From: a bacterium
GTDB lineage: Bacteria; Patescibacteriota; Minisyncoccia; UBA6257; JAGOQP01
Direction: 5' to 3'
DNA length: 64,000 nt
NCBI GenBank assembly: GCA_021814695.1
Contig: JAKAHY010000004.1
Location: 24,481-88,480, forward strand
The translations under genes and the position numbers were made by a program. The notes beneath the pieces are model-generated. The model had not been told where the DNA came from and searched no databases. It saw nothing but the letters and a program-made list of their open reading frames with translations. This document shows positions 18,297-28,661 of the stretch, in pieces. Each line of letters starts with the position of its first letter. Positions within the stretch are counted from its first letter, which is position 1.

Positions 18297-20894
18297 TTGA
18301 TTTCAATGAATATTTTTTCGATTAAATCTAAACTAACTGCCGCAATATTTTTGATGATATTTGCGGTCTTGTTGTTTGTGGCACCGGCTAAATTGAACTT
18401 TGTGGGCTCATCTACGATTTCCGTTAATCAAGTATATGCGCAACAGACACAGGCCACCCAGGCTCAGCCGAATGCATCTGCTAAAGATCTATTAAGTTTA
18501 ACGCCCGTGGGACAAGCGGGGCTTGTTGTTGAGGCAATTCTTTATTTTATTCAAGCGGTATTGTATTTATTAATATCCATTACTGGTTTGTTATTTGGTG
18601 TTGCAGTTCAATTTAACTTGGATCTTTTGCAACCAGCTAATAATGTGGCGGTTTCGGTGGGGTGGGACATATTCCGCGTTATCACAAATTTGGGTTTCGT
18701 TTTGGGGATTATAATCATTGCCATAGGTACTATAGTTCGCAGCCGTTCGTATAGGGCTCAGCAGATACTCTGGCGTTTGATAGTGGCAGCTCTTCTGGTC
18801 AATTTCAGCTTAGTGATAGCAGGCGGAATCTTGCAAGTTAGCGATTCTCTAACTGGATATTTTTTGTCATCTCTGACAGGAACACAACAATATGATTTTG
18901 CCGGAGTAAATGTTCCACTCAACAGTCCCAATAATATGATAGTTGGAACTCTTGTAGCTGAGGTAACCGGATTCTTTAGGTTGCCAAATGTAGTTGTTCC
19001 ACAAGATAGTTCGGGCTGGTTTAATTCGTCGTTTCTAAAAGTTGCTAATGTAATTAGTCATGTGACGTTAGGGCCAACAATCCTTGAATTATTTTCTTTA
19101 GTCCTTACCGTTGTTGTGTTTCTCATCGTCTTTCTTACGCTGCTAGTTTTGTCTTTGCAGGTTTTTGTGCGTTATTTCTTTATAACCGTGCTTTTGATTG
19201 TTTCTCCAATAGTATGGCTGATGTGGATATTTCCATTCGGACAACGATGGTGGAGAGAATGGTGGAACCATTTTATTAAGTGGGCTTTTATGTTGCCTTT
19301 AAACCTGTTCTTTTTGTGGCTAGCTATAGCCCAACTTCAAGGGGTTATTTATGGGACTATGACAAAAAAAGTCACAAACCTCATGTCTTCCATGCAATAT
19401 GTCATTGGAGGGAATGTTGATTTTGGTTCAATTATGGGTTCGCTAATGGCCGTTGGTTTCATAATTTTAGGAATGAAGTTGTCACATAAACTTGGTATAG
19501 CTGCTGCAGATGGAGGAATAAAGATTGCTCAAAATGCTGGAAATAAAATTAAGGAAAAAGCCGCCAGAGGTGCTGGTGCCGGATTTGCGAGGGTTGGCGG
19601 TGGAGTAGCTGCAGAAACCATCGGTGCAAAGATGTCCACTTGGGCTGGTGCAAGAAAGGGGGCGGTAACGGGTTGGGTTGCCAGAGAAACCGTTGGCCGT
19701 GCGGGAAAGGGATTGATAGGTGTTGGCGCAACGGCGGAGAAAAGAAAGGCGGAACCTGTTTTTGGTAGGCCCCCCGAAGATTTTCTAAAAGAATACTCTC
19801 AGTGGACTCCTGATAGGCTAATTAAAGCGTATGCTGGCGCACCTCGAGAGCAACAGCTCGCGATTTTAATGACGCTAGAATCAAAAAAGAAGCTCACTGC
19901 TGAAAATGTAGAAAAACTTGGAGGAACAGAGGCTCTTTTGAATCAAGCTGATTATCTTGAAGGGGGCGGCAGAAAGCCGATTGCAGATAATATTAAAATC
20001 GCAATAGGAGATGATAGGACAACATATAATGCAAGAAAGGCGATTGATGCTATATCAGACCAGGTTGAAGAACGAAACGTTACCAAAGACGAATTAGTCG
20101 CGCTTGAATCTCGCCGTGCCAATCTTGAAGAACAATCCAAAACTTCACAGAATGAAATTGATAACGCTAATAAAGAACTCGAAGATGCTAGGGCAAAGGG
20201 TGATTTGAAGAGAGGGGGCGAAATTCAGGATAAAATTAGTGCTAGCAAAAAAGTTCTTGAGAGTGCAAAATCTGAAATTTCAACTATTAATTCACAGATT
20301 CAGCCCCTAAAAACAAAACTTGAACCTCTCGAAGCTGTTGTTGGACCACGCGAAAAGGAGCTTAATAACGCTAGAGCAAGTTTCAATTCCAAATTCAAGA
20401 AGCCAGAAGAACAGAAAAGGATTAACGAAGCAATATTCTCCAAGGAAGAGGAATTTGAGCAGGGCGAAGATGGCAAAGAGGGGAAGAGCAATCTTACCGC
20501 AGGTCAAAAACTTGATAGGATTGCTCAAGCTGAATTTATTAACTCAGAGCCGACTGGCCGCAGGCTACACGATGTTATTCCTTCAATGAACACTGACTCA
20601 AAATTAGAGGGGCTTATGAGGTCATTGGTTTTATCGGCGACTAAACAAAATCGGTTAACTGGAGATTTAAAAACTGCTTTTGATGGGGCTTTTAGAGGTA
20701 GTGGCAGCGTTAAAGATCTTATATACACAATGAAAAAATATGGAGTTCGTGATCAACGTCTTTTCAAGAGACTTGAAAAGCAGATTGACAGAACTATCGC
20801 TGGCGATTTGGGATTTTCTGAGAGTGGCACCAATAAAGAAAAGGAAAATGAGTCGAGTAAGGACGATGGTGGAAAGTCGGAGGAGAAAAAATAA
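18297..20894 (+). CDS. VirB6/TrbL-like polytopic membrane protein with a long coiled-coil/Gly-Ala-rich C-terminal extension
   Basis: 865 aa. After a signal peptide there are about 6-8 hydrophobic helices across residues ~60-400. The C-terminus is hydrophilic, with a G/A-rich segment (GAGAGFARVGGGVAAETIGAK...) and a K/E-rich coiled coil. The assignment rests on topology and context only. Confidence 0.4.
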   Translation: MISMNIFSIKSKLTAAIFLMIFAVLLFVAPAKLNFVGSSTISVNQVYAQQTQATQAQPNASAKDLLSLTPVGQAGLVVEAILYFIQAVLYLLISITGLLFGVAVQFNLDLLQPANNVAVSVGWDIFRVITNLGFVLGIIIIAIGTIVRSRSYRAQQILWRLIVAALLVNFSLVIAGGILQVSDSLTGYFLSSLTGTQQYDFAGVNVPLNSPNNMIVGTLVAEVTGFFRLPNVVVPQDSSGWFNSSFLKVANVISHVTLGPTILELFSLVLTVVVFLIVFLTLLVLSLQVFVRYFFITVLLIVSPIVWLMWIFPFGQRWWREWWNHFIKWAFMLPLNLFFLWLAIAQLQGVIYGTMTKKVTNLMSSMQYVIGGNVDFGSIMGSLMAVGFIILGMKLSHKLGIAAADGGIKIAQNAGNKIKEKAARGAGAGFARVGGGVAAETIGAKMSTWAGARKGAVTGWVARETVGRAGKGLIGVGATAEKRKAEPVFGRPPEDFLKEYSQWTPDRLIKAYAGAPREQQLAILMTLESKKKLTAENVEKLGGTEALLNQADYLEGGGRKPIADNIKIAIGDDRTTYNARKAIDAISDQVEERNVTKDELVALESRRANLEEQSKTSQNEIDNANKELEDARAKGDLKRGGEIQDKISASKKVLESAKSEISTINSQIQPLKTKLEPLEAVVGPREKELNNARASFNSKFKKPEEQKRINEAIFSKEEEFEQGEDGKEGKSNLTAGQKLDRIAQAEFINSEPTGRRLHDVIPSMNTDSKLEGLMRSLVLSATKQNRLTGDLKTAFDGAFRGSGSVKDLIYTMKKYGVRDQRLFKRLEKQIDRTIAGDLGFSESGTNKEKENESSKDDGGKSEEKK

Positions 20895-20908: not shown

Positions 20909-21967
20909 ATGTATCAACCAACACGGCAACAAGTTATCACGCAATGGGAGCAGATGCCGGACATTCTTCGTGAAGCAATGCACTCTTCCCTTACTATAGA
21001 CGAAATTGATAACATTCAGACAAATTTTCATCTATCAGATGATAAAAGTAATACATTGGCCCGATTGATACGCGGCGTATTTTATGGGCTCATACACACA
21101 GAGGATTTATATAAAGAAATCAAGGACTCTCTTCAAATTGATCCGCGGTTAGCATTGGATATTTATCACGAAGTAGATAAAAAAATATTTGAGTCATTCA
21201 GGAAAGAGATAGAAGATAATTTTATAAGATCTAAAATTGGGGCCATAAAAGAATCGGAGGTGCCAAAGCCAAAATCCGTTCCTGCTCAAGTTGTCTTAAA
21301 AGAAGGTCCTGAAGTTATTAATCTTAAGCCCGAATCTGCAGTTTCCGAAACCCCAACAAAGTTGAAAGTTGAGGGTGTTCAAAAACCGTCAGAACCGGCT
21401 CCAATGCCCATCGGTCAAATTAATATAAAACCTGAGCCGATTACTGTTATTTCTTCGGCAAGTCCCAAGCCCCAATTTTCACCGATTGCTCAACAATCGA
21501 AACCTCCGGTTGCGCCAGTCACTCCTTGGCAAAAACCGGATGTTCCATCACAACCAAAAGCTGAGCCTGTTGGAGCCACCGAAGGTCCGATGATTATCCA
21601 TCAAAAAGAAGAGTCAATATCGGTATCTCAAACTCAAGCTGCCAGTCCTTTTAGGCAGAATTCTTTCGGAGGTTACATGGGATCGTTTAGGTCATTTTCC
21701 GGCCAGGCGCCACAAGCTCCGGTGTCTTCGGCAAAAATAGAAATGCCTTCCGGACAGAAGCCGGTTTCGGGCCAAACCGAACAAAAGATTCCGGTGGTGA
21801 TAAAAAAATATGAAGAAGAGCCGGCAAAAACAATTCATTATAGCGAACTAAAAACTCCGGTTACGCCCAAGAAAGAAAGTATGCCGCAGACTTCTGCGCC
21901 TGTCGTTGCCAAAAAACAGCCACCTGAGGGGATGGTTAATCTGTCCGATCTTACGTTCAGGAAATAG
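20909..21967 (+). CDS. Hypothetical proline-rich protein
   Basis: 352 aa. An N-terminal helical region is followed by a long P/S/Q-rich, likely disordered, segment. No TM helix. Confidence 0.4.
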   Translation: MYQPTRQQVITQWEQMPDILREAMHSSLTIDEIDNIQTNFHLSDDKSNTLARLIRGVFYGLIHTEDLYKEIKDSLQIDPRLALDIYHEVDKKIFESFRKEIEDNFIRSKIGAIKESEVPKPKSVPAQVVLKEGPEVINLKPESAVSETPTKLKVEGVQKPSEPAPMPIGQINIKPEPITVISSASPKPQFSPIAQQSKPPVAPVTPWQKPDVPSQPKAEPVGATEGPMIIHQKEESISVSQTQAASPFRQNSFGGYMGSFRSFSGQAPQAPVSSAKIEMPSGQKPVSGQTEQKIPVVIKKYEEEPAKTIHYSELKTPVTPKKESMPQTSAPVVAKKQPPEGMVNLSDLTFRK

Positions 21968-22010
21968 CTCCTTATGCGCTTTTTTCCAGTTTTTGATATA
22001 CTATAGTTAT

Positions 22011-22538
22011 ATGGCTCAATTCCAAGTGCCTCAATTTCTCGATATAGAAAGTAAAATTGTCGGCCCTTTGACGCTGAAGCAATTTGCATTCATAGCGGCT
22101 CCATCACTTATTTCTTTCTTTCTTTTCTTTACTCTCAATACTGTTGTCTGGGTTATTATTGCGGCTATTTTAATACTAACCGGAGTTGCATTTGCGTTCA
22201 TTAAACTCAACGGTAGGCCTCTATATATTATGGCCATTCATGCCGTTACGTTTTTTTGGCAGCCAAAGACTTTCTTTTGGAAAAGGCCGTTGGTCCAGGA
22301 AGTGGTTAATGTTCCAACAGCTACGGTAGAAGCCAAGCGTAGCGCTTTGCAAACAGCCTTACAGGGGATTTCGGGAATATCCAAATTATTTCAAGATCTT
22401 ACAACGACCAAAAATCCGATACCCAAACGCGAGAAAGTGGTCCCTAAAAAAACAATAACGGAGATAAGAGAGCAGTACCAGGTTTTCAGACGGGTTAGCG
22501 GTGAACAACAAGTAGCCCGACGCGTCGATTATAGATAG
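22011..22538 (+). CDS. PrgI/VirB3-like small membrane protein
   Basis: I restarted the track ORF 21906-22538 at ATG 22011 (MAQFQVPQFLDIESKIVGPLTLKQFAFIA...). It has two adjacent TM helices and lies immediately upstream of VirB4, which fits the PrgI/VirB3 topology. The track's upstream start adds a Cys-rich leader with no support. Confidence 0.4.
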   Translation: MAQFQVPQFLDIESKIVGPLTLKQFAFIAAPSLISFFLFFTLNTVVWVIIAAILILTGVAFAFIKLNGRPLYIMAIHAVTFFWQPKTFFWKRPLVQEVVNVPTATVEAKRSALQTALQGISGISKLFQDLTTTKNPIPKREKVVPKKTITEIREQYQVFRRVSGEQQVARRVDYR

Positions 22539-22548
22539 AGCTTAGTGA

Positions 22549-23244
22549 TTGAAGATAAGGTGGTGTATACTTATAAATAATATGGCCGAAACAACAATCG
22601 CTCCGAATTCAACCCAGCAATTTGTAGATATTGAGGAAATCAAGGACGGTATCGTCCACCTTAAAGGCGGCGGATTGCGGTCCGTTATTATGGTTGCGGG
22701 AGTAAATTTTGAACTGAAATCGGAAGAAGAGCAGGACATAATCACCGCCGGATATCAGGATTTTTTGAATTCACTGGACTTTCCCCTGCAGATAGTTATT
22801 CACTCACGGAAATTAAGCATAGATAAATATCTAAAGTCGGTTCAAGAAAGGCGCGATCAGGAGCCGAGCGAACTTTTGCGTAATCAAATTGACGAATACA
22901 CGGAATTTGTTAAAGGTTTTGTCAAAGAAAACGAGATAATGACCAAGACTTTTTTTGTGGCGGTTCCTTATGAAGGAGGGGGTGCGGCATCAATCAAAAA
23001 AGGAGTCTTAGGATTTTTTGGAGGGAATAAAAAGAAAAATGCCAAAAAAGAAAAGGAAGAAAGCTTTGAACAACAATTAACCCAGCTTCGCCAGCGAATC
23101 GACCAGGTTTTGGGAGGACTTGAAAGAATCGGTTTGCGCGCGGTGGTGTTAAATGACGACGAGCTGACCGAGCTTTATTACAATTTATACAATCCTGAAA
23201 CAGTCGAGAAAAAAATTCCCAAAGAAGCAGGTATAAAACAATAA
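22549..23244 (+). CDS. VirB4-family N-terminal domain, encoded as an ORF separate from the ATPase
   Basis: 231 aa. The segment DGIVHLKGGGLRSVIMVAGVNFELKSEEEQDIITAGYQDFLNSLDFPLQIVIHSRKL resembles the N-terminal region of Gram-positive-type VirB4/TraE proteins. Its TAA stop is 2 nt before the downstream ATPase ORF, which is in a different frame. Confidence 0.5.
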   Translation: MKIRWCILINNMAETTIAPNSTQQFVDIEEIKDGIVHLKGGGLRSVIMVAGVNFELKSEEEQDIITAGYQDFLNSLDFPLQIVIHSRKLSIDKYLKSVQERRDQEPSELLRNQIDEYTEFVKGFVKENEIMTKTFFVAVPYEGGGAASIKKGVLGFFGGNKKKNAKKEKEESFEQQLTQLRQRIDQVLGGLERIGLRAVVLNDDELTELYYNLYNPETVEKKIPKEAGIKQ

Positions 23245-23246
23245 AT

Positions 23247-25004
23247 ATGGCGGAACAGATTAAAATAGTAAAACCATATACCGGAGGCGAAGCATCCGAT
23301 GTGCGAAATCTTATTGCACCCTCGGCGGTAGAGGTAGACCAAAATTACGTCAAAATCGGCAATAAATATGCCAAGACTCTCTTTGTATTTTCTTATCCTA
23401 GATTTCTTTCCGGGGGATGGTTTTCGCCAATCATAAATCTGGCAAAACTTTTTGATATTTCTATTTTTGTCCATCCTGTAGATACTGCCTTGGCATTGCG
23501 AAGCTTAAGGAAAAAAGCCGCTCAAATTGAAGCCGAAATCGGCGAAAAGCAATCCAAAGGTTTTGTGCGTGACCCGATGCTTGAGACTGCCTTTGCTGAT
23601 ATTGAATCTCTGCGTGATAATCTTCAGCAGGCGCGCGAAAGGCTTTTTGATGCAGCGGTTTACGTTACTTTTTACGCCGACACCGTCGAAAAGCTGAATG
23701 AATTGGAAGAAATAATTACCAATATTTTCGAAAGTAAAATTATCTATGTGAAACCGGCTACCTTCCAACAAATGGAGGGTTATGTGTCCACGCTGCCTTT
23801 GGCCGAAGACAAACTCGATATACAAACACCGCTGAACTCCGGTCCAATTTCTTCTTTTTTCCCGTTTGTTTCTATGGACCTGACTTCCGATACGGGAATT
23901 TTATACGGAATAAATCAGCACAATAACACTCTCGTAATCTTTGATAGGTTTTCTTTGGAGAATGCCCACCAGGTGGTGTTTGCAAAATCCGGTTCCGGAA
24001 AATCATACGCCACAAAACTTGAAATTCTGCGCACGCTGATGATGGGCACAAAAGTTATGGTTATTGATCCGGAGCAGGAATACAAAAACCTGAGCGATAC
24101 GGTTGGTGGAACATACTTTAAGATTTCTCTGACTTCCGACCAGCACATAAACCCGTTTGATATTCCGGTAATACCTCAAGGCGAAGATCCGGCCGATGTT
24201 TTTAAATCTCATATCTTAACTCTGACGGGACTGCTTAAAATAATGCTCGGAGATATTAGCGTGGAAGAAGAGGGTCTTTTGGACAGGGCGCTTACCGAAA
24301 CTTATGCATCGCGGGATATCATTCCGACAAACCCAAAATTTTTGGAAATTGAACCGCCACTACTTTCGGATTTGGAAACCGTTTTGAGAAATATGGAAGG
24401 AGGCAGACCGATGGCCGAACGTTTGTATAAATTTACCCAGGGGACTTATTCCGGATTTGTGAACCAGAAAACCAATATAGATATGAGCAATCGGCTGATA
24501 GTGTTTTCCATCCGCGATTTGGAAGAGGAGCTCAGACCGGTGGCTATGTATGTTATTTTGAATTTTATCTGGAATACGGTCAAAGCTAAACTTGAAAGAC
24601 GCATTTTGGTTATTGATGAAGCATGGGTAATGATGAAATATCCGGAAGGGGCTTCGTTTTTGTTCGCTTTAGCCAAGAGAGGGCGCAAGTATTATCTTGG
24701 TATCACTACAATTACCCAAGAAGTGGACGATTTCTTGAATTCTCCTTATGGGAAGCCTATTGTTTCCAACTCTTCATTGCAGCTTTTGTTAAAACAATCG
24801 CCAACCAGCATAGATACGATTGCCAAAGCATTTAATTTAACCGATGCCGAAAAGAATCTTCTACTTGAAGCGGGAATCGGTCAGGGACTATTCTTCGCCG
24901 GACTTAAGCATGTTGCAATCCAAGTAGTGGCATCTTATTTTGAAGATAAGATAGTTACGACAAAGCCGCAGCAGCTTTTGGATGAAGGCGGATCTCTTTT
25001 GTAA
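23247..25004 (+). CDS. VirB4/TrbE/CagE-family type IV secretion ATPase, core and C-terminal part
   Basis: 585 aa. It has Walker A FAKSGSGKSYATK, Walker B RILVIDEAWVMM (the DEAW motif typical of VirB4) and an N-terminal YAKTLFVFSYPRFLSGGWFSPI. The combined length with the upstream ORF is about 816 aa. Confidence 0.8.
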   Translation: MAEQIKIVKPYTGGEASDVRNLIAPSAVEVDQNYVKIGNKYAKTLFVFSYPRFLSGGWFSPIINLAKLFDISIFVHPVDTALALRSLRKKAAQIEAEIGEKQSKGFVRDPMLETAFADIESLRDNLQQARERLFDAAVYVTFYADTVEKLNELEEIITNIFESKIIYVKPATFQQMEGYVSTLPLAEDKLDIQTPLNSGPISSFFPFVSMDLTSDTGILYGINQHNNTLVIFDRFSLENAHQVVFAKSGSGKSYATKLEILRTLMMGTKVMVIDPEQEYKNLSDTVGGTYFKISLTSDQHINPFDIPVIPQGEDPADVFKSHILTLTGLLKIMLGDISVEEEGLLDRALTETYASRDIIPTNPKFLEIEPPLLSDLETVLRNMEGGRPMAERLYKFTQGTYSGFVNQKTNIDMSNRLIVFSIRDLEEELRPVAMYVILNFIWNTVKAKLERRILVIDEAWVMMKYPEGASFLFALAKRGRKYYLGITTITQEVDDFLNSPYGKPIVSNSSLQLLLKQSPTSIDTIAKAFNLTDAEKNLLLEAGIGQGLFFAGLKHVAIQVVASYFEDKIVTTKPQQLLDEGGSLL

Positions 25005-25006
25005 TA

Positions 25007-25825
25007 TTGCTGCTGGCTTTAACAGTTATGAATAACGACCAGCTAAAACTTACCGATTTTTTTGACCCGATTGTACAACTTGCCATCGGGTTGGCGGTTG
25101 CGGGCGATATTCTTTTTATAGTGCTGCCTTTACGTTATATATTCGCCGTTATTATCGGCATAGTTCTTTGGCAGGGAATGAAAGGATTTTTAACAAAATT
25201 CGTTTTTATTATTTGTCTTGTTCTGCCTTTACCGCTGATGACGATAGGAACTATATTGGGGATTATTCTTTCGAACGGAGTGGTAAGAATGATAGCTACT
25301 CAGGTTGCAATACAAGCCTTATCGGTTGCTACCGTAGGGGGAGCCGAAGTTCTTGAAGTTGGTGCTGTGGCGGAGACGGCTGCCGCCGGAGCGGAAGCGG
25401 TTGCCGGTACGGCAGCTGCAGCAGCCGAAGCGGGAGCAGTTGGGGCCGAGGCCGCCGCTGCCGGAGCTGAGGTTGCCGGTACTGCGGCTGAGGCTGGTGT
25501 TGGTGCGGTAGAAGAAGCAGCCGGAGCCATACCTAAGCCAGTGGGGCCTTCGGCACAGCCCCCGGAAATGCCGGGACCTCAAGCCCAGCCGGAAGAAGCC
25601 AAAAAACCATCCCTTAAAGAAAGGGCTAAAGGCAAAGTTGTTGAAAAAATAAAAGAAAAGCTTGCTGAAGATATCGCTGAAGAAGGAGGGCCAAGCGACG
25701 AAAATGAGAACGAAGAAGAATCCAATATAATTCAAGGAGAATTCGGAAATCCGGACATCAGTGATTTAGAAAGCCAAGAACAAGAAGAGGATGAGAATAT
25801 TGTTGATTTGAGGAAAGCAGCTTAA
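25007..25825 (+). CDS. Hypothetical polytopic membrane protein with an Ala/Gly/Glu-rich repeat region and an acidic tail
   Basis: 272 aa with 3-4 N-terminal TM helices. The region A(E/G)A(V/A)AGTAAAAAEAGAVGAEAAAAGAEVAG is encoded by a local GC-rich imperfect repeat (~25320-25520). The C-terminus is E/D-rich. Confidence 0.4.
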   Translation: MLLALTVMNNDQLKLTDFFDPIVQLAIGLAVAGDILFIVLPLRYIFAVIIGIVLWQGMKGFLTKFVFIICLVLPLPLMTIGTILGIILSNGVVRMIATQVAIQALSVATVGGAEVLEVGAVAETAAAGAEAVAGTAAAAAEAGAVGAEAAAAGAEVAGTAAEAGVGAVEEAAGAIPKPVGPSAQPPEMPGPQAQPEEAKKPSLKERAKGKVVEKIKEKLAEDIAEEGGPSDENENEEESNIIQGEFGNPDISDLESQEQEEDENIVDLRKAA

Positions 25826-25861: not shown

Positions 25862-26578
25862 ATGAACCGTTTGCTAAAAATCTCGGTAATATTTGTCTTT
25901 TCTATTATAATCGTGGCATTTGGCGTTAACTACGCTCAAGCGGCAGACCCGCAATTTTTGGTTTCGTGGAAAGCCGATACAAGCGCTCCACAATCATATA
26001 TGGGAAAAATTATGCCGGTAAGCGGATCTACTATAACCATTTCCTTTGAACTTATAGGCACAACCGGTAATCAGGCTGGAAAAGTTTTAGATCTGACAAA
26101 TAGCAATGTCCGTTGGTATATTAACGGGAATCTCCTTTCTCAGGGGAAGAATGAAAAGACATTTTCATTTATTACGGCAGACAATAATGATACCGAAACG
26201 GATTTAAAGATTTCGGCCGAGTACGCCGATCCGGTTGCCGGTTACAGTTATTTTGTGGATAAATACGTTACAATCCCCTTATCACATCCTCAAGTGGTAA
26301 TAAATCAAAATAAAATAAGCAGCTCCATTGCTGTCGGTTCGGGAACTCAATTGTTTGCATTGCCGTATTTTTTCAATGCTCTTATAAAAAATTTAAGCAT
26401 ACAATGGGTGGCTAACGGCCAAAATATTCCTATTGATCCTAAAGATCCATGGAATCTCAGCGTCAATATAGGTTCAAATTATATTTCCGGATCACAGGTG
26501 ACTATTTCGGCGGTTGTTCAGAGCATTTTTGATTCTTCGATTCAGGCACAAAAAAATCTCATTATTACGGTTCAATAA
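25862..26578 (+). CDS. Hypothetical secreted beta-rich protein
   Basis: 238 aa with a signal peptide (…NYAQA/ADP). The composition is that of a beta-strand-rich protein. Confidence 0.4.
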   Translation: MNRLLKISVIFVFSIIIVAFGVNYAQAADPQFLVSWKADTSAPQSYMGKIMPVSGSTITISFELIGTTGNQAGKVLDLTNSNVRWYINGNLLSQGKNEKTFSFITADNNDTETDLKISAEYADPVAGYSYFVDKYVTIPLSHPQVVINQNKISSSIAVGSGTQLFALPYFFNALIKNLSIQWVANGQNIPIDPKDPWNLSVNIGSNYISGSQVTISAVVQSIFDSSIQAQKNLIITVQ

Positions 26579-26579
26579 T

Positions 26580-27452
26580 ATGAAAAAATTTATTCGAAAA
26601 ACAATTTTATTGGCGGCTCTCATTTTTGTGATTGGGGGGATTTATAACTTTGTTTTTGCCACTAATGTCACGTTGGAATACCCCGCATTTACTCGAGCTC
26701 CGAGTCCTGCCGACATGGTGGGCCAGATTTATACCTATGCTTTAAGTATCGCAGGTGCGCTTGCAATTATTCGTGTCGTATATGGCGGAATAGTCTATAT
26801 AATAAGTGCCGGCAATACATCAAAACAATCCGATGCCCGGGATATTATTACCAGCGCTATCTGGGGATTGGTGCTTTTGGCCGGATCTTATCTTCTTTTA
26901 AATACCATCAATCCGGAAATAGTTCAGCTTAAAAATCCGAATCTTACTCCATCTGCTTTAATAAAAGGCACAGGGGGTCAAATTGGAGTTGTCCCAAGCG
27001 GAGGGTTTGGTGGCATCAGCGAGCAGTCGGCCCGTACCGAACTGACCGCCGGTTTAGTGCAGGTAAAACCCCAATGTTCTCCGGGACAAACTGCCTGCGC
27101 CACTCTTGATAATATCCAACAATCAACCGTGGATGAATTACTTGCATTAAAACAGTATTGCGATGCTCAGGAAGGCAGCTCTTGTAAAGTTTTGGTAAAT
27201 GAAGGAACTGGAGGTTCTCACAGCGAGACCGGAACGCTTACTCACGCCAACGGGTATAAAGCCGATTTAAATTACACCCCCAGTGATCCCCTGACATCAT
27301 ATATAGAAAGCTGGAACAAAGTCGGTCCGGCAAGTGTTCCTGCGGAGATACAAAAAGGCTGCTCAACTTATAGTTGTTATCAAAGTCCGACCGGAGCAAT
27401 TTATATGCTTGAGGGAGATCATTGGGACGTTACCGTTCCACCTAAAAAATAA
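26580..27452 (+). CDS. VirB2/TrbC-like pilin fused to a Cys-rich C-terminal domain
   Basis: I restarted the track ORF at ATG 26580 (MKKFIRKTILLAALIFVIGGIYNFVFA, a signal peptide). Two hydrophobic helices (IYTYALSIAGALAIIRVVYGGIVYIISAG and AIWGLVLLAGSYLLL) are separated by a short charged loop, which is the T4SS pilin topology. A ~170-aa extension with 6 Cys follows. Confidence 0.45.
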   Translation: MKKFIRKTILLAALIFVIGGIYNFVFATNVTLEYPAFTRAPSPADMVGQIYTYALSIAGALAIIRVVYGGIVYIISAGNTSKQSDARDIITSAIWGLVLLAGSYLLLNTINPEIVQLKNPNLTPSALIKGTGGQIGVVPSGGFGGISEQSARTELTAGLVQVKPQCSPGQTACATLDNIQQSTVDELLALKQYCDAQEGSSCKVLVNEGTGGSHSETGTLTHANGYKADLNYTPSDPLTSYIESWNKVGPASVPAEIQKGCSTYSCYQSPTGAIYMLEGDHWDVTVPPKK

Positions 27453-27455
27453 AAA

Positions 27456-28661
27456 ATGAAGCGAACCGCAATAATTATTATAGTAGTCATTATCGCCGTG
27501 GCAGTTGCTGTCGGGGTTTATTTAGGATATCAGAAATCAAAAAGTGTTATTTCTCTAACCGGTTCGACGCAACAAGGAGCTTTGCCTATAGGCACTAGCA
27601 ATGGAGAGGCGGCCGGTAGCACAAATCAGGGGGGCGCGGCATCGGCAGAAAATATTTCATCCACAAGCACCGAAGAAGCCGGCTATTTTCAGGACCAAAA
27701 ACAGAGACTGTCGATTCTGACAACTCAGCCGGTCATGGGTTATTGGATGACAGTGCCTAAAATTGCCTCAACTACGCCACAGATATTTTATCTTGACCAG
27801 AAAGGAGAAGTTGTAGAGATTGACCAGACGGGCAAGGAAAATGTTGTTTCTAATTCAAATTTGGGAATTCCCGTGCGAAGCCTTCAGAATATAGACGGAT
27901 CAAAGGTGATAGTCCTATTTGATTCGGGAATACTGGCTATTTTTGACACTGCCTCAAAGGTTTGGCAATCATTGGATTCGTCAATATCTTCATTTGTCTT
28001 TTCGCCCGATGGGAAAAGCATCGCTTATGTAAAACCCAATGGCGCCAGAAATTCCATATATACTCAGAATATTTCTACAACCAAGAAGAATTTAACGCTC
28101 GTAGCGACACTTAACATACAGGATTTTTCTATCGCCTGGCCTTCTGTTAGCACGATAATTCTTGTTCCTAAGCCGGCAAACCAGTTTTATGGTCAAGCGT
28201 GGTATCTGAATTTAAAAAATAATACTCTTAATTCTTTGGGGTTTGGTAATGGGCTTGATTATGTTTTTTCTCAGAAAGCCAATTATGGAATTCAATTCAT
28301 TTCAACCGACAGAAGCAAAATTTCGGTTTCCATAATTAATGACTCCGGAAAAAAACTTGCCGACATGCCATTTTCTTCCATAGCAGCTAAATGCTCGTTT
28401 GCCCAAGACGCGATAGCGGCTTATTGTGCCATACCGGTATCATATACGGGCGGTGCTGTTACTCTTCCGGATGATTATTTAAAGAAAGCGACATTTAGTA
28501 ACGACTCTATTTATAAAATAGACTTATCTTCATCCCAACTCACAAAAATTGTGGATTCGGGTACGGCCTTAATTGATGCGACCGATATAAGAGCGGCAAG
28601 CTCGACTTTGCTCTTTGTAAATCGTCTTGATGGCATGTTATATAGATTTAATATGCAGTAA
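27456..28661 (+). CDS. Membrane-anchored protein with beta-propeller (TolB/PD40-like) repeats
   Basis: 401 aa with an N-terminal TM segment. It contains repeated motifs such as FSPDGKSIAYV. Confidence 0.45.
   Translation: MKRTAIIIIVVIIAVAVAVGVYLGYQKSKSVISLTGSTQQGALPIGTSNGEAAGSTNQGGAASAENISSTSTEEAGYFQDQKQRLSILTTQPVMGYWMTVPKIASTTPQIFYLDQKGEVVEIDQTGKENVVSNSNLGIPVRSLQNIDGSKVIVLFDSGILAIFDTASKVWQSLDSSISSFVFSPDGKSIAYVKPNGARNSIYTQNISTTKKNLTLVATLNIQDFSIAWPSVSTIILVPKPANQFYGQAWYLNLKNNTLNSLGFGNGLDYVFSQKANYGIQFISTDRSKISVSIINDSGKKLADMPFSSIAAKCSFAQDAIAAYCAIPVSYTGGAVTLPDDYLKKATFSNDSIYKIDLSSSQLTKIVDSGTALIDATDIRAASSTLLFVNRLDGMLYRFNMQ

What the first reader, a model, noticed from the sequence alone, without database searches (positions are those of the whole stretch)
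22549..25004. VirB4 ATPase encoded as two adjacent ORFs in different frames
The first ORF (22549-23244, 231 aa) looks like the VirB4 N-terminal domain. The second (23247-25004, 585 aa) carries the Walker A/B ATPase core. A TAA stop and only 2 nt separate them, and the second ORF has its own ATG in another frame. Together they give about 816 aa, a typical VirB4 length. This is either a genuine split gene with the two domains as separate polypeptides, a programmed frameshift, or a recent or sequencing-derived frameshift that makes it a pseudogene. Each alternative has different functional implications for the whole module.
Basis: seen in the sequence. Interest (0 to 1): 0.6.

Follow-up and report, generated by a model that had tools for sequence, protein, structure and literature searches.

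The report
Naturally split VirB4 secretion ATPase
The two adjacent genes are a genuine, conserved two-piece version of the VirB4 motor protein of a type IV secretion system in an ultra-small (Patescibacteria/CPR) bacterium; this arrangement was already described as "TrsD + VirB4", so it is real but ordinary.

Summary
ORF1 most likely starts at ATG 22582 (220 aa), not TTG 22549, and ends at TAA 23242-23244. Two bases later ORF2 (23247-25004, 585 aa) starts in another frame. ORF1 matches only the first ~180 positions of VirB4 family models. ORF2 matches the rest, positions 185-733 of the 752-position CD1110 model. Together they tile naturally fused 786-aa orthologues end to end.

This is a true split gene, not a frameshift, slippage site or error:
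- 77 of 80 related Patescibacteria loci are split.
- Gaps range from a 106-nt overlap to 451 nt, and all three relative frames occur.
- Five loci have a small gene inserted between the halves.
- dN/dS is 0.02-0.04.
- Three independent assemblies show the identical junction.
- A near-identical strain breaks the A7 run near the junction.

The split point matches TrsD/TrsE of staphylococcal plasmid pSK41. It falls in a variable, low-confidence linker of the fused form.

A 2025 survey (PMC12102498) already lists TrsD homologues next to virB4 in about 1,660 Patescibacteria assemblies. The increment here is small: complementary tiling, interleaved fused and split forms, and insertions at the junction.

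The parts
22011..22538 (+). PrgI-family (VirB3-like) small membrane protein, directly upstream of the split VirB4. The likely start is ATG 22011 (175 aa), not TTG 21906.
   Evidence: Pfam PF12666 PrgI, E=3.5e-6, 27.9 bits against a cut-off of 27. Identical contigs call a 175-aa gene here. The same position is occupied in relatives.
22582..23244 (+). ORF1: TrsD-like protein of 220 aa, equivalent to the first ~180-200 residues of VirB4 (N-terminal module). The stop is TAA at 23242-23244.
   Evidence: NCBIfam N-terminal matches: VirB4_plasma 102-232/894 (E=7e-10), TIGR00929 14-178/792, CD1110 2-111/752, TrsD/TraD 21-142/201. There are 1721 homologues, and the best 120 are all 182-238 aa standalone proteins carrying PF26593 'TraC-like'. 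The top 14 Foldseek PDB hits of the AF2 model are all TrwK/VirB4 chains. ORF1 aligns to residues 8-220 of a fused orthologue. dN/dS is 0.02-0.04.
23209..23215 (+). A7 run (codons AAA AAA A, Lys-Lys) 27 nt before the ORF1 stop. It was considered as a slippery site and rejected.
   Evidence: It is read as AAA|AAA|A, not the X_XXY_YYZ register. A near-identical strain has A23213G, which breaks the run. The run is retained in L087, where a 116-nt spacer separates the two genes. The window holds 69 A7+ runs.
23245..23246 (+). 2-nt spacer 'AT' between the ORF1 stop and the ORF2 start. This tight junction is compatible with translational coupling.
   Evidence: In the survey, 43 of 77 split relatives have an overlap or a gap of 10 nt or less.
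23247..25004 (+). ORF2: VirB4 lacking its first ~185 residues (585 aa). It carries the second half of the N-terminal region plus the P-loop ATPase domain.
   Evidence: NF045971 CD1110-family VirB4: 373.7 bits against a cut-off of 325, protein residues 17-557 matching model positions 185-733/752. Pfam P-loop_TraG E=8.5e-29 and AAA_10. PDB 4AG5 VirB4 C-terminal domain E=1e-43. ORF2 aligns to residues 212-784 of a fused orthologue at 66% identity.
23982..24005 (+). Walker A motif AKSGSGKS (ORF2 residues 246-253).
   Evidence: Read from the translation. It aligns with AKPGAGKS of VirB4 4AG5.
24603..24620 (+). Walker B motif ILVIDE (ORF2 residues 453-458).
   Evidence: Read from the translation. 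It aligns with VLVVDE of 4AG5.
18297..20894 (+). Large polytopic membrane protein in the VirB6/TrbL position of the same gene cluster (context).
   Evidence: The orthologous gene in relatives carries PF19590 TrbL_3. Gene order is conserved.
26514..27452 (+). T4SS pilin-domain protein of the same cluster (context).
   Evidence: Pfam PF18895 T4SS_pilin, E=1.1e-6, 29.1 bits against a cut-off of 26.6.

Best explanation
The locus encodes the VirB4 motor ATPase of a chromosomal, Gram-positive-type type IV secretion system of a Patescibacteria (Paceibacterota) bacterium, as two separately translated polypeptides.

ORF1 (220 aa, 'TrsD-like') is the first N-terminal module of VirB4. ORF2 (585 aa) is the remainder of the N-terminal region plus the P-loop ATPase.

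Shown here: the two proteins tile full-length VirB4 without loss or duplication. The split is conserved across hundreds of species with variable junction geometry. Both parts are under strong purifying selection. The split point coincides with a variable, low-confidence linker in fused orthologues and with the TrsD/TrsE boundary of plasmid pSK41.

Inferred: after translation the two chains associate non-covalently to rebuild a VirB4 protomer. Translation is probably coupled, given the 2-nt spacer. The protomer then oligomerises at the membrane with the PrgI/VirB3-like and VirB6-like proteins encoded upstream, and it powers assembly of, or secretion through, the T4SS/pilus. The N-module probably provides the membrane-proximal docking surface. 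This last step rests on what is known of the R388 VirB3-VirB4 complex and was not tested here.
For: Tiling:
- Model coordinates are complementary.
- BLASTP to the fused orthologue L025 gives ORF1 10-218 to residues 8-220 and ORF2 5-580 to residues 212-784.
- The AF2 model of a fused orthologue superposes on full-length TrwK/VirB4 (TM 0.67, E=4.6e-25, ~810 columns).
- That model's pLDDT dips to 50-62 at residues ~201-220, i.e. at the split point.

Conservation of the split:
- The best 120 ORF1 homologues are all 182-238 aa.
- Only 2 of the best 150 cluster representatives are long.
- 77 of 80 informative loci are split, with gaps from -106 to +451 nt (median 9) and relative frames 38/23/16.
- Close relatives have gaps of 116, 12 and 1 nt.
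- Five loci have a 117-129-aa gene inserted between the halves.

Selection and sequence accuracy:
- dN/dS is 0.02-0.04 for both ORFs.
- The exact ORF2 protein occurs on 12 contigs. Three were examined from different assemblies: two are identical to the window over 4758 nt, and the third differs at 2 positions. All three have the same TAA-AT-ATG junction.

Precedent:
- pSK41 has trsD (227 aa) followed by the VirB4-like TraE/TrsE (672 aa).
- The boundaries are homologous: ORF1 23-205 aligns to TrsD 46-217, and ORF2 17-560 to TrsE 32-617.
- PMC12102498 reports 2,272 TrsD homologues in Patescibacteria, 1,664 of them next to virB4, and states that the one in Southlakia epibionticum is listed as essential.
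Against: - No protein-level evidence exists for two chains or for their association.
- The match of ORF1 to the curated TrsD/TraD model is far below its cut-off (28 bits against 200; hhalign probability only 34%). The tie to staphylococcal TrsD is therefore remote homology plus shared position.
- Fused forms are common in a neighbouring clade: 116 of the 119 retrievable sequences among the best 120 hits to a fused query exceed 760 aa. The split is therefore not universal in Patescibacteria.
- The 80-locus survey is biased towards relatives of this window.
Confidence: 0.9

Rival explanations
1. Programmed -1 ribosomal frameshift or transcriptional slippage at the A7 run (23209-23215) yields a single fused VirB4. 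The two-ORF appearance would then be a recoding signal.
For: ORF2 is in the -1 frame. The ORF2 frame is open from 23199, so a slip in the A7 run would read through into ORF2. The run is also present in two close relatives.
Against: - The run is in register AAA|AAA|A rather than X_XXY_YYZ.
- A near-identical strain carries A23213G, which breaks the run.
- In L087 (94% aa identity) the same run is followed by a 116-nt spacer before ORF2.
- Orthologues show all three relative frames. 16 are in frame with a stop between the halves, 5 have an inserted gene, and 12 have overlapping stop and start codons.
- A7+ runs occur 69 times on this strand of the window.
Confidence: 0.02
2. A recent frameshift mutation or a sequencing/assembly indel has broken a once-continuous VirB4 gene, making a pseudogene or an artefact.
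For: Fused 775-809-aa orthologues exist in related Patescibacteria. The spacer is only 2 nt.
Against: - The junction is identical in three independent assemblies, and the exact ORF2 protein occurs on 12 contigs.
- The split is conserved from 94% down to 43% ORF1 identity.
- dN/dS is 0.02-0.04 on both halves.
- ORF1 has a variable C-terminal tail and ORF2 has a conserved own N-terminus (MAEQIK/MPEEIK...), which is typical of real termini.
Confidence: 0.01
3. ORF1 is an independent accessory protein that merely resembles the VirB4 N-terminus (a paralogue, for example a regulator or adaptor). ORF2 would be a self-sufficient, naturally short VirB4, and the two would not reconstitute one protomer.
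For: The literature assigns TrsD 'no function' and only 'remote homology' to the VirB4 N-terminus. In the published survey some TrsD homologues are not next to virB4 (2,272 against 1,664).
Against: - ORF2 lacks model positions 1-184, and ORF1 supplies exactly those, with no overlap or duplication.
- Natural fusions join the two in the same order through a short variable linker.
- The fused model matches full-length TrwK.
- Fused and split forms interleave in the tree, as expected for interchangeable states of one protein.
Confidence: 0.06

Closest known systems
TrsD homologue + VirB4 of the Patescibacteria T4SS (Quinonero-Coronel et al. 2025, Microb Genom, PMC12102498; Southlakia epibionticum T4SS, Wang et al. 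2023, PMC10633639)
   Same: - Same phylum-level lineage and same gene neighbourhood: VirB6-like, PrgI/VirB3-like, TrsD-like, VirB4, VirB2-like pilin.
- The TrsD-like gene sits directly upstream of virB4.
- The location is chromosomal, among housekeeping genes.
- Orthologues carry the same Pfam families, PF26593 and PF19044.
   Different: Nothing substantive: this locus is one more member. The paper treats TrsD as a component of unknown function with remote homology to the VirB4 N-terminus. Text searches of it found no 'split' or 'fission', and 'fusion'/'fused' only for VirB3-VirB4. The complementary tiling, the fused relatives and the junction insertions shown here are therefore an added interpretation.
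TrsD/TraD + TrsE/TraE of staphylococcal conjugative plasmids pGO1/pSK41 (NCBIfam NF041427; MPF_FATA pGO1 subclass)
   Same: - A ~220-aa protein homologous to the VirB4 N-terminus is encoded immediately upstream of a VirB4-like ATPase that lacks that segment.
- The boundary is homologous.
- A small VirB3-position gene precedes it.
   Different: - Sequence similarity is very remote: 28 bits against a 200-bit cut-off, and hhalign probability 34%.
- pSK41 is a conjugative plasmid with a relaxase and a coupling protein. Here the system is chromosomal, and the ORFs that were scanned in the window gave no relaxase or VirD4 match.
- Whether the two splits share ancestry or arose independently at a permissive linker is unresolved.
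Single-chain VirB4 (CD1110 family NF045971; TrwK of R388, PDB 7O41/8RTD; Thermoanaerobacter VirB4, PDB 4AG5)
   Same: - Same fold and domain order once the two products are concatenated.
- Walker A and B motifs are conserved.
- ORF2 passes the CD1110 curated cut-off.
- The fused Patescibacteria orthologue superposes on TrwK at TM 0.67.
   Different: Here the first ~200 residues are a separate polypeptide.

Membership tests
VirB4-type T4SS ATPase (NCBIfam NF045971 CD1110 family / TIGR00929) | Score above the curated family cut-off | tested here: met
   ORF2 scores 373.7 bits against a cut-off of 325 for NF045971. It is below the cut-offs of TIGR00929, TraC-F-type and the other subfamilies.
VirB4-type T4SS ATPase (NCBIfam NF045971 CD1110 family / TIGR00929) | C-terminal P-loop NTPase domain with Walker A and Walker B | tested here: met
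   AKSGSGKS at residues 246-253 and ILVIDE at 453-458. ORF2 matches 4AG5 at E=1e-43. Pfam P-loop_TraG E=8.5e-29.
VirB4-type T4SS ATPase (NCBIfam NF045971 CD1110 family / TIGR00929) | Complete N-terminal domain on the same polypeptide | tested here: not met
   ORF2 starts at model position 185 of 752. Positions 2-111 and beyond are on ORF1. The full domain is present only across the two products.
VirB4-type T4SS ATPase (NCBIfam NF045971 CD1110 family / TIGR00929) | Encoded with other mating-pair-formation components (VirB3/PrgI, VirB6/TrbL, pilin) | tested here: met
   PrgI at 22011-22538 and T4SS_pilin at 26514-27452. The upstream orthologues carry TrbL_3.
VirB4-type T4SS ATPase (NCBIfam NF045971 CD1110 family / TIGR00929) | ATP hydrolysis, oligomerisation and requirement for secretion | not testable with these tools
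   Needs biochemistry or genetics. The only experimental data are Tn-seq essentiality of the T4SS cluster in Southlakia (PMC10633639). PMC12102498 states that the TrsD homologue there is listed as essential.
TrsD/TraD family (NCBIfam NF041427) / Pfam PF26593 TraC-like | Standalone ~200-230-aa protein homologous to the VirB4 N-terminus | tested here: met
   ORF1 is 220 aa with N-terminal VirB4 model matches. The top Foldseek hits are TrwK/VirB4. The identical 220-aa gene on other contigs carries precomputed PF26593.
TrsD/TraD family (NCBIfam NF041427) / Pfam PF26593 TraC-like | Encoded immediately upstream of the VirB4-like ATPase | tested here: met
   The spacer is 2 nt. pSK41 has the same order: trsD at 25886-26569, then the ATPase at 26584-28602.
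TrsD/TraD family (NCBIfam NF041427) / Pfam PF26593 TraC-like | Score above the NF041427 curated cut-off (200 bits) | tested here: not met
   ORF1 scores 28.1 bits, E=1.6e-6. hhalign of A1 against pSK41 TrsD gives probability 34%, E=4e-4. ORF1 is a remote homologue, not a member of the staphylococcal subfamily.
Programmed -1 frameshift / transcriptional slippage gene | Slippery motif in the correct register, conserved among orthologues | tested here: not met
   The register is AAA|AAA|A. The run is broken by A23213G in a near-identical strain. It is absent in L003 and is only A6 in L089 and L001.
Programmed -1 frameshift / transcriptional slippage gene | Conserved frame relation and overlap between the two ORFs | tested here: not met
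   Relative frames are 38/23/16 and gaps run from -106 to +451 nt. Some loci have genes inserted in the gap.
Programmed -1 frameshift / transcriptional slippage gene | Downstream stimulatory RNA structure | not tested
   Not examined, because the two features above already failed.

The most novel reading that the evidence does not exclude
The linker between the first N-terminal module and the rest of VirB4 may be an evolutionary hot spot in Patescibacteria. There the gene repeatedly toggles between one-chain and two-chain forms and even accepts insertions of small genes. That would imply the TrsD-like module is a separable adaptor, for example between PrgI/VirB3 and the ATPase ring. Its stoichiometry or timing could then be set independently of the motor. 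This would give a function to a protein (TrsD) that the literature lists as having none.
Probability: 0.25. Interest if true: 0.4.

Novelty: already known. Interest (0 to 1): 0.2.

Why it matters
For annotating this window, the T4SS module should be read as intact and functional, not as carrying a VirB4 pseudogene. The two ORFs should be named 'VirB4 N-terminal module (TrsD-like)' and 'VirB4 ATPase'.

More generally, the complementary tiling and the natural fusions argue that TrsD is simply the detached first module of VirB4. The literature describes TrsD as a widespread T4SS component of unknown function, and its homologue in Southlakia is listed as essential. This is a modest clarification of a published catalogue, not a discovery.

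Tried and rejected
- A sequence-profile search of the ORF1 family against PDB found nothing meaningful. The link to TrwK came only from the fold search, and that used a mediocre model (pLDDT 67, TMq 0.40).
- P0314, a 596-aa protein 87% identical to a fused VirB4, looked like a very recent split. tblastn showed the ORF is continuous, so the public annotation simply chose a late start.
- L005, the closest GTDB representative, looked fused, but it has 100 Ns exactly at the junction and is uninformative.
- I tested whether ORF1 and the first 215 residues of ORF2 are an internal repeat, because the order of secondary-structure elements looks similar in the fused model. hhalign probability was 0.5%, so there is no support.
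- I looked for a Shine-Dalgarno site for ORF2. Only 3 of 40 genes in the window have one, so its absence says nothing.
- The NJ trees are not bootstrapped. I use them only to say that fused and split forms interleave, not to count events precisely.
Full report
**1. What is in the sequence**

ORF listing and direct reading confirm the observation.
- An ORF ends with TAA at 23242-23244.
- A two-base spacer (AT) follows.
- A 585-aa ORF starts at ATG 23247 and ends at 25004, in the -1 frame relative to the first ORF.

The mechanical start of the first ORF is TTG 22549 (231 aa). Every homologue, however, begins about 10 residues before the conserved STQQFV motif (alignment A1). Gene calls on identical contigs give 220 aa. 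The real start is therefore ATG 22582.

**2. Are the two ORFs two pieces of one VirB4?**

Yes. Against NCBIfam:
- ORF1 matches only the N-terminal ends of VirB4-type models: Mbov_0397-type VirB4 positions 102-232 of 894 (E=7e-10), TIGR00929 14-178 of 792, CD1110 2-111 of 752, and the TrsD/TraD model.
- ORF2 residues 17-557 match CD1110 positions 185-733 of 752. The score is 373.7 bits, above the curated cut-off of 325.

Other evidence for ORF2:
- Pfam finds P-loop_TraG, AAA_10 and the distal part of TraC_F_IV.
- Residues 216-570 match the crystal structure of the VirB4 C-terminal domain, 4AG5, at E=1e-43.

The cleanest test is a naturally fused orthologue found in related genomes (L025, 786 aa, no Ns).
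- ORF1 10-218 aligns to its residues 8-220 at 51% identity.
- ORF2 5-580 aligns to its residues 212-784 at 66% identity.
- So the two products tile one protein, with only the short termini meeting in a linker.

Structure predictions agree:
- An AlphaFold2 model of a fused orthologue (pLDDT 73) superposes on full-length TrwK/VirB4 of the R388 system over about 810 columns (TM 0.67, E=4.6e-25).
- Its confidence drops to 50-62 at residues ~201-220, which is the split point.
- This stretch is also variable in the alignment of 38 fused proteins.
- A model of ORF1 alone (pLDDT 67) has TrwK/VirB4 chains as its top 14 PDB matches. The scores are modest (TMq 0.40).

ORF2 still carries about 215 N-terminal-region residues before the P-loop domain.

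**3. Split gene, recoding, or damage?**

*Distribution of the standalone form*
- ORF1 has 1721 homologues. The best 120 (54-94% identity) are all standalone proteins of 182-238 aa annotated with Pfam PF26593 'TraC-like'.
- In an exhaustive search of cluster representatives, only 2 of the best 150 are long.

*Survey of related loci*

I fetched 80 loci from GTDB species representatives (576 candidates were confirmed) and measured each junction. Counting the window and other fetched loci, 80 were informative.
- 77 are split and 3 are fused.
- Gaps range from a 106-nt overlap to 451 nt, with a median of 9.
- 12 overlap (ATGTGA-type and longer), and 31 have gaps of 0-10 nt.
- The second gene is in relative frame +1, +2 or 0 in 38, 23 and 16 loci.
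- Five loci with gaps of 419-451 nt carry a small same-strand gene (117-129 aa) between the two halves. From my own reading, four of these look like the '23S rRNA intervening sequence' four-helix-bundle type. The Pfam hit to that family (PF05635) was seen only at a different place, in L093.

*Close relatives*

Even the nearest relatives differ at the junction: 116 nt at 94% identity, 12 nt at 89%, and 1 nt at 75%.

*Selection*

dN/dS against the two closest relatives is 0.02-0.04 for ORF1 and 0.02 for ORF2.

*Independent assemblies*

The exact ORF2 protein occurs on 12 contigs from different samples. I examined three.
- Two are identical to the window over 4758 nt.
- The third differs at two positions.
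- All three have the same TAA-AT-ATG junction.

*The A7 run*

One of the two differences in the third contig is A23213G. It interrupts the only plausible slippery sequence, the A7 run at 23209-23215. That run is also in the wrong register (AAA|AAA|A). It is retained in a relative whose two genes are separated by a 116-nt spacer. It is one of 69 such runs on this strand of the window.

*Conclusion*

Programmed frameshifting, a recent pseudogenising frameshift and a sequencing artefact are all rejected.

**4. How it most likely works**

*Shown:* the two polypeptides together contain every part of a VirB4. They are always encoded in the order N-module then remainder. They sit directly downstream of a PrgI/VirB3-like gene (22011-22538) and a VirB6/TrbL-like membrane protein (18297-20894). 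A T4SS pilin-domain gene follows at 26514-27452. Most junctions are tight or overlapping (43 of 77).

*Inferred:* the two chains are made in roughly equal amounts by coupled translation. They associate non-covalently across the interface that is intramolecular in fused VirB4. They then assemble with the VirB3-like and VirB6-like proteins at the membrane and energise the secretion or pilus machine.

From established knowledge of the R388 structure, the VirB4 N-terminal domain contacts VirB3 and the membrane components. That makes the detached module the likely docking piece. This was not tested here.

The system is chromosomal and lies among housekeeping genes: PolA, UvrD, KsgA, Fpg, RNase J, H+-PPase, FtsK and SHMT. 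This fits the published picture of Patescibacteria T4SSs:
- They are conserved core machinery rather than conjugative elements.
- In Southlakia epibionticum the T4SS cluster is essential for epibiotic growth.
- PMC12102498 states that the TrsD homologue there is listed as essential.

**5. Comparison with what is known**

The arrangement is already described. Quinonero-Coronel et al. 2025 (PMC12102498) report the following:
- It is the most abundant T4SS component in Patescibacteria: 2,272 homologues in 2,221 assemblies, 1,664 of them next to virB4.
- It has no assigned function.

The prototype is TrsD of staphylococcal plasmid pGO1. In the sister plasmid pSK41 I verified the gene order: trsD (227 aa), then the VirB4-like ATPase (672 aa).

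I also verified that the boundaries are homologous.
- ORF1 23-205 aligns to TrsD 46-217.
- ORF2 17-560 aligns to the ATPase 32-617.

Membership in the staphylococcal TrsD subfamily itself fails: 28 bits against a cut-off of 200. The relation is remote homology plus an identical position.

What the paper does not say is that this is a complementary gene fission. My text searches found no 'split' or 'fission', and found 'fusion'/'fused' only for VirB3-VirB4.

A search with a fused query showed that single-chain versions (775-809 aa) are common in a neighbouring clade, which includes Harrisonbacteria and Colwellbacteria.
- 116 of the 119 retrievable sequences among the best 120 hits exceed 760 aa.
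- In a neighbour-joining tree rooted with Firmicutes VirB4s, the deep branches sampled are all split.
- Fused forms cluster in one derived region, where they interleave with split ones, for example L092, L033, L052 and L063.
- This suggests several transitions.
- The tree has no bootstrap, and the locus sample is biased towards relatives of this window. I claim interleaving only, not a number or a direction of events.

**6. Verdict**

The 'genuine split gene' interpretation is supported at about 0.9 confidence.

The feature is an ordinary member of a published and database-catalogued arrangement: Pfam PF26593, NCBIfam TrsD/TraD, and PMC12102498.

The small increment here is the case that TrsD is simply VirB4's detached first module. 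It rests on three points:
- the two products tile VirB4 exactly;
- natural fusions exist;
- the junction tolerates spacers, overlaps and inserted genes.

Interest is low (0.2). Novelty: already known.

Noticed in passing
window-wide; e.g. 22565-22570 (before ORF1), 23233-23238 (before ORF2), 21997-22002 (before the PrgI-like gene): 18 of 40 ATG-start ORFs of at least 150 aa have a TATAAT-like hexamer (at most 1 mismatch) ending 4-16 nt before the ATG, against 11% at random positions. Only 3 of 40 have a Shine-Dalgarno-like motif. This suggests leaderless or short-leader transcripts, or a non-SD initiation signal, in this genome.
   Followed up: partly
L006 4633-5079, L022 4642-5062, L027 4678-5099, L061 4654-5082, L062 4663-5115: In five relatives a small same-strand gene (117-129 aa) is inserted exactly between the TrsD-like gene and virB4. 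From my own reading, four look like the '23S rRNA intervening sequence' four-helix-bundle type and one is different. In L093 a gene with a Pfam PF05635 hit sits between PrgI and a fused VirB4.
   Followed up: partly
L025 746-3106, L037 788-3160, L049 3980-6352; proteins P0270-P0388: Single-chain (fused) versions of the same VirB4, 775-809 aa, are common in a neighbouring Patescibacteria clade (Harrisonbacteria, Colwellbacteria and others). They interleave with split forms in an NJ tree.
   Followed up: partly
L091 1919-4291 (GCA_001818005.1, MHJN01000006.1): The public annotation calls a 596-aa 'TraC' here, but the ORF is continuous from an upstream ATG. It encodes a fused ~790-aa VirB4, so the called start is too late.
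   Followed up: yes
L005 (DAOOCG010000001.1), between the TrsD-like gene and virB4: A run of 100 Ns (scaffold gap or mask) lies exactly at the junction in the closest GTDB representative. This explains the 'partial' 223-aa protein P0013 and makes the locus uninformative.
   Followed up: yes
fused-orthologue model m6fa1409a25e9, residues 15-201 versus 232-386: The TrsD-like module and the following ~190 residues show a similar order of strands and helices, which hints at an internal structural repeat in the VirB4 N-terminal region. A profile comparison of the two halves found no sequence similarity (hhalign probability 0.5%).
   Followed up: partly
window 25007-25825 (+), with a mirror ORF at 25300-25530 (-): The gene just downstream of virB4 encodes a membrane protein with a long Ala/Gly/Glu-rich low-complexity tail. 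It matches TrbL weakly (E=2e-5, far below the cut-off). The antisense ORFs over it are composition artefacts.
   Followed up: no
window 26514-27452 (+): The T4SS pilin domain covers only residues 70-125 of a 312-aa protein. The C-terminal ~180 residues are an extra cysteine-containing domain with no family match.
   Followed up: no
window 21906-22010: The mechanical TTG start of the PrgI-like ORF overlaps the preceding gene (20909-21967). Gene calls on identical contigs start at ATG 22011 (175 aa).
   Followed up: yes
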